A program made the position numbers and the translations under genes. This document shows positions 6,604-7,254 of a stretch of 64,000 bases of DNA, piece after piece (the stretch's first letter is position 1; every line of letters begins with the position of its first letter). The stretch is from a phage, in NCBI GenBank assembly GCA_036252695.1, contig GCA_036252695.1_4122.1. One strand, written 5' to 3'. The notes under the pieces were generated by a model. It did not search any database and was not told the DNA's origin. It worked only from the letters and a program-made list of their open reading frames with translations.

Positions 6604-7254
6604 ATGAATAAAAGAAGTAAGTTCTATCAAGAATATTTCACTAAACAGAAACGATTCACAAAAAAATACTTTACATCATCCCACCGACCAGTTGCAAGTT
6701 ACAAACGTCCTAATACTAACTATCTTACTGGTGGCAAGTTTAGTGCAAAGTTCGAATTACTTATGCGTGAAAAGAATATCAAGATGCATTACGCAGAGAC
6801 AAGAAAAAACTCATCAATTATTTGTTCTGATTTTCTTGAGTACGGTTGTTTAACTTATAAATTCAATGATGTATATTTGTATATTGATGTTGATTGTAAC
6901 AGTACTCGTATGTTTGAGATTTCAATTCACCCAAATCACAACCGTTATATAAACATTAACTTGATTGATAAAGTACTGATTGGTATATCTAGTACTGATG
7001 GTGGTGGATTTGAATTTATTGCTTCAAAATATGATGAAGATTTCGTACTTTACCCAGTACTTGATGATGTGAAAGATATTCTCAATTCATTAAAAGGAAG
7101 TCAATACAAATTATCTGAAGAACAGCTATTTCAGTACTCACTTATTCATGATGATATCGAGATATACTTAGAGTGTGCGAGAATCTTGGAGTATCTTTAT
7201 AATGAACTAACAACAACTGGTAAAGTGACTGCATTCACATTATATAATATGTAA
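6604..7254 (+). CDS. Fam-F hypothetical protein (EEQLFQYSLIHDD motif)
   Basis: 216-aa ORF, TATAAT box and SD gagg upstream; motif shared with 30241, 60449, 61126, 62364. Confidence 0.65.
   Translation: MNKRSKFYQEYFTKQKRFTKKYFTSSHRPVASYKRPNTNYLTGGKFSAKFELLMREKNIKMHYAETRKNSSIICSDFLEYGCLTYKFNDVYLYIDVDCNSTRMFEISIHPNHNRYININLIDKVLIGISSTDGGGFEFIASKYDEDFVLYPVLDDVKDILNSLKGSQYKLSEEQLFQYSLIHDDIEIYLECARILEYLYNELTTTGKVTAFTLYNM

What the first reader, a model, noticed from the sequence alone, without database searches (positions are those of the whole stretch)
6604..7254. Dispersed Fam-F family with a shared acidic EExFQYSLVxD motif
Five proteins at 6604..7254, 30241..30900, 60449..60790, 61126..61449 and 62364..62684 share a C-terminal-half motif (EEQLFQYSLIHDD / EEEFMYSTVIDN / EEYFQESLVWD / EEEFQYMLVHDD / EDELFQYSLVYD). 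Each sits inside or beside one of the tandem arrays, suggesting a functional link with them.
Basis: seen in the sequence. Interest (0 to 1): 0.5.

Follow-up and report, generated by a model that had tools for sequence, protein, structure and literature searches.

The report
Hidden sixty-copy jumbo-phage protein family
The five small proteins are real relatives and belong to a previously unnamed family of about sixty fast-diverging paralogues, roughly a tenth of the genes of 121Q-like giant E. coli phages; the family is not detected in virions and is probably made early in infection, and its function is untested.

Summary
The window comes from an Asteriusvirus (121Q/PBECO4-like) E. coli jumbo phage. 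All five ORFs exist as described and share a significant motif, [ST]-E-E-x-[YLF]-F-Q-x-S-[LT]-[VIL]-aromatic-[DN]. A motif matrix trained on 74 relatives from other genomes scores them 22.7-41.6 bits. The next window ORF scores 4.9, and the best of 68,200 shuffled ORFs scores 15.1.

The five are the visible edge of a much larger superfamily. 121Q has 49 hits at E<1e-3, and about 60 members with weaker motif-bearing hits: 37 in one array that starts at F3-F5 and runs about 27 kb past the window's right end, the rest dispersed. Members also occur in Klebsiella RaK2-like phages.

The orthologues mapped in phAPEC6 are absent from its virion proteome, and the arrays sit behind sigma-70-consensus promoters. 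My best reading is an early, diversified binder repertoire for host takeover or counter-defence. That function is inferred, not shown. The proposed link to neighbouring arrays is supported only for the 72-aa family.

The parts
6604..7254 (+). F1: long-form family member (216 aa). It has a basic N-terminal extension (helix 3-22 plus a disordered KR-rich linker) followed by the family domain.
   Evidence: ORF. 100% identical to phage WPEC3 and 45.5% to 121Q gp233. phrog_34359 E=1e-56. The family HMM reaches E=5e-6 before F1 is included in the model. hhalign P=1.2e-6. AF2 model: residues 120-205 have pLDDT 75-83; the beta-strands, the motif helix 172-181 and helix 185-205 give the same architecture as F5.
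7114..7152 (+). F1 motif SEEQLFQYSLIHD (residues 171-183)
   Evidence: motif matrix 31.1 bits against a shuffle maximum of 15.1
30241..30900 (+). F2: most divergent long-form member (219 aa, pI 9.3), embedded in the ~60-aa array operon
   Evidence: ORF. phrog_29152 E=3e-116. Motif matrix 22.7 bits. F2-orthologue profile against the family: P=8e-6 to 2e-5. Its top 16 of 175 targets are all family members. F1-F2 profile comparison: P=1.3e-4, collinear.
30751..30789 (+). F2 motif SDEEEFMYSTVID (residues 171-183), with Q replaced by M
   Evidence: the Turkey5 orthologue reads EDEMFQWSTIIKD
60449..60790 (+). F3: short-form member (113 aa, pI 4.7). Its start overlaps the last gene of the 72-aa array by 11 nt. 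Motif SPEEYFQESLVWD at 60650-60688.
   Evidence: phrog_13866 E=2.5e-7; 100% identical to 121Q gp342
61126..61449 (+). F4: short-form member (107 aa). Motif SEEEEFQYMLVHD at 61300-61338. The F4/269-aa segment is not matched in 121Q.
   Evidence: BLASTP to F5 E=1e-7; phrog_13866 E=1.4e-5; the 121Q match covers only 69% of window 60000-64000
62364..62684 (+). F5: short-form member (106 aa, pI 4.2). Motif QEDELFQYSLVYD at 62526-62564. Its start overlaps the stop of the 269-aa ORF by 4 nt.
   Evidence: phrog_13866 E=6e-41; AF2 model pLDDT 72, pTM 0.70, strands 2-48, helices 56-65 and 73-90
60823..60851 (+). Sigma-70-type promoter TTGACA-17-TATAGT (11/12, TG-extended) in the gap after F3, ahead of the 81-aa ORF and F4
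61493..61521 (+). Sigma-70-type promoter TTGACA-17-TAACAT (10/12, TG) ahead of the 269-aa ORF and F5
28187..28215 (+). Sigma-70-type promoter TTGACA-17-TACAAT (11/12) at the head of the 60-aa array operon that contains F2. The palindrome CAGTACTG lies in its spacer.
7262..7280 (.). Palindromic GC-rich hairpin GCCAGTACATAGTACTGGC just after the F1 stop. It is terminator-like on the minus strand (T-rich tail after the convergent RCC1 gene); the plus-strand tail after F1 is not T-rich.
54814..60459 (+). Context: the ~72-aa 'LGT..QE' family array (28 copies counting 62662-63113), which is interleaved with Fam-F here and in related phages
   Evidence: phrog_4148
61558..62367 (+). Context: 269-aa ORF between F4 and F5. 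Its N-terminus is a 72-aa-family domain. The C-terminal part is unassigned.
   Evidence: A72 HMM E=2e-9 over residues 28-63; phrog_4148 E=1e-10

Best explanation
Fam-F is a lineage-specific, massively expanded superfamily of small soluble proteins of Asteriusvirus (121Q-like E. coli/Salmonella) and Alcyoneusvirus (RaK2-like Klebsiella) jumbo phages. Members are 104-220 aa with a median pI of 4.8.

SHOWN. (a) The five window proteins are homologous. (b) 121Q carries 49 hits at E<1e-3, and about 60 members once weaker motif-bearing hits are counted. Thirty-seven lie in one tandem array that starts at F3-F5 and runs past the window's right end; the others are dispersed, and F1 and F2 are long-form singletons at conserved positions. 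(c) Paralogues are only 20-40% identical, except for an invariant F-Q inside [ST]-E-E-x-[YLF]-F-Q-x-S-[LT]-[VIL]-aromatic-[DN].

PREDICTED. The domain is a five-strand antiparallel beta-meander covered by two C-terminal helices. The motif forms the N-cap and buried face of the first helix, that is, the fold's core. The sheet, loops and termini carry the variation.

INFERRED. The genes are expressed early by host sigma-70 RNA polymerase as translationally coupled operons, and the products stay in the infected cell rather than entering the virion. They most likely act as a diversified panel of stoichiometric binders or inhibitors of host proteins (host takeover or counter-defence), each paralogue with its own target on one common scaffold. 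My confidence that the family and its architecture are real is about 0.9. My confidence in the early, non-structural assignment is about 0.7, and in the binder/anti-host function about 0.35-0.4.
For: Homology and size. A seed HMM built from F3, F4 and F5 alone finds 25 members at E<=1e-4 in Turkey5, Muenster and 121Q. Iteration reaches 79-82. Independent PHROG profiles cross-link the members: phrog_12674 matches 31 of 80, phrog_9317 27 and phrog_13866 26. A scan covering 315 of the 348 kb of 121Q gives 49 hits at E<1e-3, 37 of them at 160-190 kb and 12 dispersed, plus about 10 weaker hits that carry the motif. The best shuffled sequence reaches only E=0.022. F is invariant in 80/80 and Q in 79/80.

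Fold. The AF2 model of F5 has pLDDT 72 and pTM 0.70, highest at the motif. The C-terminal two-thirds of F1 has the same architecture. Independently modelled RaK2, PBECO4 and slurp01 proteins in BFVD match the F5 model at E=2e-6 to 1e-2.

Non-structural. The phAPEC6 virion proteome (PMC7247149, Table 1) lists the neighbouring RCC1 proteins gp003-010, gp549 and gp551. It lists nothing between gp347 and gp549, and not gp011c. Gp011c is the F1 orthologue and gp463c the F5 orthologue.

Early transcription. Plus-strand gaps between 33 and 54 kb carry the perfect TTGACA-16/17/18-TATAAT in 11 gaps and an 11/12 match in 9 more. A 12/12 match never occurred in 821 coding-sequence controls. Promoters of the same type precede the 60-aa operon (28187), the F4 unit (60823), the F5 unit (61493) and segments of the 121Q main array, including a 12/12 match at L004 17984. 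The phage also has a T4 gp55-like late sigma factor.

Fast evolution. 121Q-Turkey5 orthologues are 25-56% identical, and recent duplicates reach 58%. The F4/269-aa segment is not matched in 121Q. F1 is 45% identical between the window phage and 121Q, while the array next to it is 63-95% identical.
Against: - No experiment addresses function, timing or localisation in this clade.
- Promoter assignments are consensus matches only. F1 has only weak promoter candidates (9/12).
- The AF2 models rest on shallow alignments of 19-20 sequences. The F1 model as a whole is poor (pLDDT 58).
- Acidity is not universal: F1, F2 and F4 have pI 7.6, 9.3 and 8.2.
- Absence from one virion proteome does not exclude low-copy packaging.
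- F2 never passes a plain HMM search (E 0.2-1.2). Its membership rests on motif and profile-profile evidence.
Confidence: 0.55

Rival explanations
1. Adaptor model. The invariant helix motif is a docking site for one common partner, and the variable beta-sheet selects different cargoes. The partner could be the interleaved ~72-aa family, or the phage's own Clp/HslV-type proteolysis machinery. The family would then be a library of substrate adaptors, analogous to viral F-box or BTB families.
For: F-Q is invariant or nearly so across about 80 paralogues that otherwise share 15-25% identity. The 72-aa family is interleaved with Fam-F in E. coli and Klebsiella phages and is translationally coupled to F3 and F5. 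One ORF (61558-62367) fuses a 72-aa-family domain to an unassigned C-terminal part. 121Q is annotated with ClpA-like gp581, ClpP-like gp464 and gp473, HslV-like gp475 and ClpS-like gp48.
Against: By helix periodicity and the AF2 models, the conserved hydrophobic residues (F, L/T, V/I) and the Q lie on the face that packs on the sheet, and S/T-E-E is a classical N-cap. This explains the conservation structurally. There is no 1:1 pairing of 72-aa and Fam-F genes; the 72-aa genes come in runs of one to three, or far more, between Fam-F genes. F1 and F2 have no adjacent 72-aa gene. The protease annotations are the depositors' own and were not tested here.
Confidence: 0.12
2. Immunity or antitoxin-like repertoire. 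The small, mostly acidic paralogues neutralise toxins, such as nucleases or other effectors of abortive-infection systems, toxin-antitoxin modules or competing phages. This would resemble the tandem arrays of divergent immunity genes in bacterial polymorphic-toxin loci. It is a more specific version of the binder idea.
For: Median pI is 4.8 and sizes are 104-220 aa. The genes form tandem arrays of highly divergent paralogues. They are not detected in virions. A YafQ-like toxin gene is annotated just upstream of the Muenster array.
Confidence: 0.12
3. Packaged proteins. Like the neighbouring RCC1-repeat proteins, Fam-F members are internal virion proteins injected with the DNA.
For: F1 sits between RCC1 genes whose products are virion-associated in phAPEC6. 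Polymorphic arrays of internal proteins are known in T-even phages (from general knowledge).
Against: No orthologue appears among the 62 phAPEC6 virion proteins, neither gp011c nor gp463c, and nothing between gp347 and gp549 is listed. The arrays carry sigma-70-type early promoters rather than a late-gene context.
Confidence: 0.05
4. The invariant ..E-x-x-Y-F-Q|x-S.. is a proteolytic processing or degron site. Some members read EEMYFQGS, which matches the TEV-type pattern E-x-x-Y-x-Q-G/S.
For: F and Q are invariant. Several 121Q members match E-x-x-Y-x-Q-G.
Against: The residue after Q is usually large (Y 26, Q 9, L 9, E 9, M 7 of 80), not G, S or A. The segment is predicted helical and is the most confident part of the model. 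No 3C- or NIa-type protease is annotated in the parts of 121Q read here.
Confidence: 0.03
5. The motif is a chance or compositional match, and the five proteins are unrelated.
For: Pairwise BLAST is weak for most pairs. F2 fails plain HMM searches.
Against: The motif matrix gives 22.7-41.6 bits against a maximum of 15.1 in 68,200 shuffles and 4.9 for any other window ORF. The five rank 1-5 of 245 in the profile comparison. The distance to the C-terminus is constant. The motif is conserved in orthologues.
Confidence: 0.01

Closest known systems
PHROG clusters phrog_13866, phrog_12674, phrog_9317, phrog_15629, phrog_34359, phrog_29152 and at least 25 more, all 'unknown function'
   Same: These clusters already contain the orthologues of F1-F5 and their paralogues. 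F3, F4 and F5 hit phrog_13866, F1 hits phrog_34359 and F2 hits phrog_29152.
   Different: PHROGs splits the superfamily into at least 31 separate clusters and gives no name, fold or function. The unification, the copy number of about 60 per genome and the motif definition were not found in any library or paper I could search.
Lineage-specific expansions of small proteins in large viruses. Examples are the ~35-copy zinc ribbon of Bacillus phage G (Iyer et al. [quoted passage not shown] By analogy only, and from general knowledge, the ASFV MGF and poxvirus multigene families also belong here.
   Same: Tandem and dispersed arrays of rapidly diverging paralogues occupy a variable part of the genome, and a conserved scaffold carries variable surfaces. 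About 10% of the 121Q genes belong to this one family, which fits the RaK2 remark.
   Different: The fold and motif are different. None of those papers describes this family.
Polo-box-like beta-meander plus helix domains (PLK1/2/4, Cdc5, ZYG-1, KKT3), and the lobe domain of the RNA polymerase beta subunit
Early 'hyperplastic-region' genes of T4-like phages, transcribed from sigma-70 early promoters (general knowledge; cf. the T4-like late sigma, polymerase and capsid genes annotated in 121Q)
   Same: These are small, non-essential-looking genes of unknown function behind strong sigma-70 consensus promoters, highly variable between related phages.
   Different: T4 has no comparable single family with dozens of copies, and there is no sequence relationship.

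Membership tests
Fam-F superfamily as defined here (beta-meander + [ST]EEx[YLF]FQxS[LT][VIL] helix + second helix) | Significant match of the motif block, in register 33-39 residues before the C-terminus | tested here: met
   All five score 22.7-41.6 bits; the shuffle maximum is 15.1 and the next window ORF scores 4.9
Fam-F superfamily as defined here | Whole-domain profile match (HMM or profile-profile) | tested here: met
   F3, F4 and F5 reach E<=1e-14. F1 reaches E=5e-6 before it is included in the model, with hhalign P=1e-6. For F2 only the C-terminal 18-59 columns match (P 8e-6 to 1e-5), and the plain HMM gives E 0.2-1.2. F2 is therefore met for the helical part and inconclusive for the sheet.
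Fam-F superfamily as defined here | Predicted fold: antiparallel sheet followed by two helices, with the motif forming helix 1 | tested here: met
   F5 model and F1 residues 82-205. F2, F3 and F4 were not modelled.
phrog_13866 (PHROGs v4, unknown function) | hmmscan match to the family profile | tested here: met
   F5 5.7e-41, F3 2.5e-7, F4 1.4e-5. F1 reaches only 0.34, and F2 has no hit.
Any Pfam-A family | Score at or above the gathering threshold | tested here: not met
   No hit reaches a gathering threshold for the five proteins or for 80 members
Polo-box domain | Phosphopeptide-binding residues or tandem polo-box arrangement | not tested
   No residue-level superposition is available with these tools
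SUKH / Imm-type immunity proteins | Profile match to an Imm or SUKH Pfam family at or above threshold | tested here: not met
   No such family appears among the Pfam results for the five proteins or the 80 members
SUKH / Imm-type immunity proteins | Adjacent cognate toxin gene | tested here: not met
   The neighbours are other Fam-F, 72-aa, 60-aa, 115-aa or RCC1 genes
3C/TEV-type protease cleavage site | Q at P1 followed by a small P1' residue (G/S/A) in an accessible, extended segment | tested here: not met
   P1' is Y, Q, L, E or M in most members, and the segment is predicted helical
Beta-clamp-binding motif (Q-L-[SD]-L-F) | Pentapeptide consensus in a disordered terminus | tested here: not met
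   The motif is Q-x-S-[LT]-[VIL] inside a predicted core helix, and no F follows at position 5. The consensus is recalled from general knowledge.
Virion (structural or internal) proteins of Asteriusvirus | Detection in a purified-virion proteome | tested here: not met
   phAPEC6 Table 1 lacks gp011c and gp463c and lists nothing between gp347 and gp549. This is a single data set.

The most novel reading that the evidence does not exclude
Fam-F, together with the interleaved ~72-aa family, would be a combinatorial targeting system. About sixty variable beta-sheet 'readers' on one invariant helix would each deliver a different host protein to a common phage machine, for example the phage's own ClpA/ClpP/HslV/ClpS-like proteolysis set. 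This would be a bacteriophage counterpart of the F-box/BTB substrate-adaptor families of eukaryotic viruses. The evidence does not exclude it. F-Q is near-invariant, the two families are interleaved across two phage genera, and one fused ORF exists. However, the conserved residues look structural, so nothing positively requires it.
Probability: 0.07. Interest if true: 0.85.

Novelty: new member of a known kind. Interest (0 to 1): 0.42.

Why it matters
About 83% of the genes of these 350-kb phages have no assigned function (PMC7247149). This analysis shows that one unnamed superfamily accounts for about a tenth of the 121Q genes, about 60 of its 618 annotated features. It gives the family a testable definition (motif, fold model, boundaries). 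It places the family in the early, not-virion-detected, fast-evolving part of the genome, where host-takeover and anti-defence functions usually reside.

This turns about 60 separate 'hypothetical proteins' per genome into one experimental target. The family can be studied by array deletion, pooled expression or toxicity screens, and AP-MS. It also supplies a seed alignment for a Pfam-type family. These phages are candidates for therapy against E. coli and Klebsiella, so knowing what a tenth of their genes do is practically relevant. As biology it is an example of a known phenomenon, paralogue expansion in giant viruses, rather than a new principle, unless the adaptor reading turns out to be true.

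Tried and rejected
1. Word-indexed protein searches with F5, F1 and an 80-sequence alignment returned only close Asteriusvirus relatives. The exhaustive HMM search over 1.84 billion representatives gave just 20 hits, all 105-216 aa. The ten hits looked up all came from E. coli jumbo-phage records or E. coli assemblies, with no fusion to a known domain.
2. tblastn with the HMM consensus found nothing, probably because of low-complexity masking. tblastn with a Muenster member and with 121Q gp181 did not reach other genera.
3. The afdb50 fold library was unavailable. A BFVD search with the low-confidence F1 model was uninformative.
4. I tested whether the N-termini of F1 and F2 derive from the 60-aa 'EYY' family. 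There was no HMM or profile signal.
5. I tested whether the 115-aa, 60-aa or 72-aa families are distant Fam-F relatives. They are not (P>0.01).
6. I tested whether the C-terminus of the 269-aa ORF is a Fam-F domain ('TKDLYEQALMI'). The match is not significant.
7. I tested whether the S-T codons of the motif are selected to carry the genome's over-represented AGTACT/CAGTACTG palindrome. In the motif 56% of S-T dipeptides are AGT-ACT, against 43% genome-wide (p=0.18). The four palindromes in the window's F2 are not conserved in 121Q (one copy) or Turkey5 (none). Rejected.
8. Readings as a clamp-binding motif or a TEV/3C-type cleavage site were rejected on motif composition and predicted helicity.
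9. Literature searches found no description of the family and no transcriptome for this clade.
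Full report
**Source and setting.** The window is from an Asteriusvirus-type jumbo myophage of E. 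coli (121Q/PBECO4 group). Window 5000-9000 is 96-99% identical to the ten records that cover most of it, including CMSTMSU, fEgEco12 and WPEC3. Window 60000-64000 is 97% identical to 121Q over the matched 69%. The window corresponds to roughly 110-163 kb of 121Q. It is made almost entirely of lineage-specific gene arrays:
- seven ~115-aa multi-pass membrane proteins (2926-5365, + strand);
- about twenty RCC1-repeat genes (5402-28156, - strand);
- twenty-two ~60-aa genes (28241-33232);
- about fifty unrelated small genes, most with their own promoter (35-54 kb);
- twenty-eight ~72-aa 'LGT..QE' genes (54814-60459 and 62662-63113).

**Checking the observation.** All five ORFs exist at the stated coordinates. 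Each carries the quoted motif 33-39 residues before its C-terminus, and the motif occupies residues 171-183 in both long proteins F1 and F2. Pairwise BLASTP supports only F4-F5 (E=1e-7). The other pairs are marginal or undetectable, so the claim needed profile tests.

An 18-column motif matrix was built from 74 relatives found in other genomes, with no window sequence in the training set. The set does include the 121Q orthologues of F3 and F5, so F1, F2 and F4 are the fully independent cases. The matrix scores F3 41.6, F5 40.4, F1 31.1, F4 26.1 and F2 22.7 bits. The next best of the 341 window ORFs scores 4.9 bits, and the best of 68,200 shuffled ORFs scores 15.1 bits.

Three further tests agree. 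In hhalign of every window ORF of at least 50 aa against the family profile, the five rank 1-5 of 245. Unrelated array families give P>0.01. The F2-orthologue profile places family members in its top 16 of 175 targets (Mann-Whitney p=1e-15). Codons at the invariant positions vary synonymously, so the signal is in the protein and not in a DNA repeat. F2 is the outlier: it has F-M instead of F-Q and never passes a plain HMM search. Its Turkey5 orthologue retains F-Q.

**What it really is.** An HMM seeded only with F3, F4 and F5 finds 25 proteins at E<=1e-4 in three loci fetched from phage Turkey5, Klebsiella phage Muenster and 121Q. Iteration converges on 79-82 proteins. This is not profile drift. 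The first-round hits already score 1e-7 to 1e-21, every member carries the motif in register, and independent PHROG profiles cross-link them.

I then scanned 315 of the 348 kb of 121Q. This gives 49 hits at E<1e-3, against a best shuffled E of 0.022. Thirty-seven lie at 160-190 kb, in the array that begins with the F3 and F5 orthologues (gp342, gp344) and continues about 27 kb beyond the window's right edge. Twelve are dispersed at 58-65, 74-80, 95, 100 and 255 kb. About ten weaker hits also show a clear E-E-x-x-F-Q-x-S-[LT]-[VI].

With F1 and F2 this makes about 60 genes, roughly 10% of the 618 annotated features. [quoted passage not shown] The consensus over 80 members is [ST]-E-E-x-[YLF]-F-Q-x-S-[LT]-[VIL]-[YFHW]-[DN], with F in 80/80 and Q in 79/80. 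Lengths are 104-220 aa and the median pI is 4.8.

**Range.** The family is confined, as far as BLAST and HMMER can see, to Asteriusvirus-like E. coli/Salmonella phages and Alcyoneusvirus (RaK2, K64-1, Muenster) Klebsiella phages. It has no Pfam model and is scattered over at least 31 PHROGs of unknown function. I found no paper that describes it.

**Structure.**
- AlphaFold2 on F5, with a 20-sequence alignment, gives pLDDT 72 and pTM 0.70. It predicts five antiparallel strands (residues 2-48), helix 56-65 (E-L-F-Q-Y-S-L-V-Y-D, the best-predicted part) and helix 73-90.
- F1 as a whole is poorly predicted (pLDDT 58). Its residues 120-205 reach 75-83 and repeat the same sheet, motif helix (172-181) and second helix (185-205). 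They are preceded by a basic N-terminal helix and a disordered linker.
- The S/T-E-E (in F3, S-P-E-E) ahead of the helix is a typical N-cap. By helix periodicity F(0), Q(+1), L/T(+4) and V/I(+5) share one face. I infer that the motif is the core of the fold and that variation sits in the sheet, loops and termini. I could not check burial on coordinates.
- Independently computed BFVD models of RaK2, PBECO4 and slurp01 paralogues are the only viral matches (E=2e-6 to 1e-2).

**Expression and location (inferred).** In the plus-strand region from 33 to 54 kb, most of the 50 intergenic gaps analysed between 28 and 64 kb contain a strong sigma-70 promoter match. Eleven gaps have the perfect TTGACA-16/17/18-TATAAT and nine more have an 11/12 match. 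A 12/12 match never occurred in 821 length-matched coding controls.

Promoters of the same type stand at these positions:
- the head of the 60-aa operon that contains F2 (28187-28215);
- after F3, ahead of F4 (60823-60851);
- ahead of the 269-aa ORF and F5 (61493-61521);
- gaps of the 121Q main array, including a 12/12 match with TG at L004 17984.

Genes within the units overlap by 1-23 nt, which suggests translational coupling. The phage also encodes a T4 gp55-like late sigma factor. A T4-like programme in which these genes are early, host-polymerase transcripts is therefore the simplest reading. F1 is different. It is a single plus-strand gene between two minus-strand RCC1 genes, it has only weak promoter candidates, and a palindromic hairpin follows it.

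In the published phAPEC6 virion proteome the neighbouring RCC1 proteins are present (gp003-010, gp549, gp551). Nothing numbered between gp347 and gp549 is listed, and neither is gp011c. I mapped gp011c to F1 and gp463c to F5. On that evidence the family is not a detected virion component.

**Evolution.** Paralogues are typically 20-40% identical, with a few recent duplicates at 58%. 121Q-Turkey5 orthologues are only 25-56% identical. The F4/269-aa segment is not matched in 121Q. F1 lies on a steep divergence gradient between the window phage and 121Q: the 115-aa genes are 95% down to 63% identical, F1 is 45%, and the RCC1 genes are 25-30%.

The positional association with arrays is real and conserved. 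F1 follows the 115-aa array beside the RCC1 genes in 121Q, Turkey5 and phAPEC6, and F2 sits inside the 60-aa array in 121Q and Turkey5. Co-occurrence across genera holds only for the 72-aa family, which is interleaved with Fam-F in 121Q, Turkey5 and Klebsiella phage Muenster. F3-F5 are not satellites of another array. They are the first genes of Fam-F's own array. No functional link is shown.

**Mechanism.** My best-supported reading is that this is one stable alpha+beta scaffold multiplied into about sixty diverging copies. The copies would be made early and remain in the cell, each acting as a binder or inhibitor of a different host protein (host takeover or counter-defence). I put this at about 0.35-0.4.

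The rivals are:
- an adaptor library that docks through the invariant helix to a common partner, either the 72-aa proteins or the phage's ClpA/ClpP/HslV/ClpS-like set annotated in 121Q;
- an immunity-like repertoire against toxins;
- packaged proteins;
- a processing site at F-Q.

The last two are disfavoured. Chance is excluded.

**Verdict.** The family is real, significant and much larger than reported. It is uncharacterised, and it is a new example of a known phenomenon, paralogue expansion in giant viruses. It is of moderate interest, mainly as a well-defined experimental handle on a tenth of the 121Q genes.

Noticed in passing
window-wide; densest at 33233-35214; examples at 28199, 36685, 42702, 45407, 47032, 51467, 53114, 53431: The 8-nt palindrome CAGTACTG occurs 62 times, against 1.0 expected (maximum 4 in 100 shuffles). 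In many early promoters it fills the spacer directly upstream of the -10 (TTGACA-N9-CAGTACTG-TATAAT). More than 12 copies crowd an ORF-poor ~2-kb stretch with no tRNA or Rfam hit. It is enriched across all 121Q regions fetched (0.3-0.7 per kb). S-T dipeptides are encoded AGT-ACT 43% of the time. It may be an operator for a phage regulator, a modification or recognition site, or an origin-like region.
   Followed up: partly
window 33-54 kb, + strand intergenic gaps: Most gaps carry a near-perfect sigma-70 promoter (11 gaps 12/12, 9 gaps 11/12). A recurrent variant, TTGCAA-16-TATAAT, occurs in 9 gaps. This gives one promoter per small gene, an unusually regular early-gene architecture.
   Followed up: partly
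window 5371-5397, 7262-7280, 8467-8489: Palindromic hairpins built on CCAGTAC(T)...(A)GTACTGG lie at the ends of convergent or tandem genes around F1 and the RCC1 array. The T-rich tails are on the minus strand. They use most of the CAGTACTG core (full at 5371-5397, one base short in one arm at 7262-7280).
   Followed up: no
window 2926-5365: The seven ~115-aa tandem paralogues are predicted multi-pass membrane proteins, judged by long hydrophobic segments in the alignment. Identity to 121Q falls from 95% to 63% towards F1.
   Followed up: partly
window 61558-62367: This 269-aa ORF has an N-terminal 72-aa-family domain (E=2e-9) fused to about 200 unassigned residues. A segment TKDLYEQALMI loosely resembles the Fam-F helix but is not significant. 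The F4/269-aa segment is not matched in 121Q.
   Followed up: partly
window 5402-28156 (- strand): This is an array of about 20 RCC1-repeat genes. Several orthologues are virion-associated in phAPEC6 (gp003-010, gp549, gp551 in PMC7247149 Table 1). They are extremely divergent between the window phage and 121Q (24-31% identity), even though the flanks are nearly identical.
   Followed up: no
121Q loci L011-L014 (gp48, gp464, gp473, gp475, gp581): 121Q is annotated with its own ClpS-like, ClpP-like (two copies), HslV-like and ClpA-like proteins, which would form a possible phage-encoded proteolysis set. The annotations are the depositors' own and were not verified.
   Followed up: no
window 6604-7254, 30241-30900 and 62364-62684 compared with the databases: The window is a mosaic. 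F1 is 100% identical to WPEC3 but 45% to 121Q. F2 is 100% identical to Turkey3. F5 is 99% identical to UE-S1 and 98% to 121Q, but 82% to WPEC3. This points to recombination between Asteriusvirus lineages within the array region.
   Followed up: no
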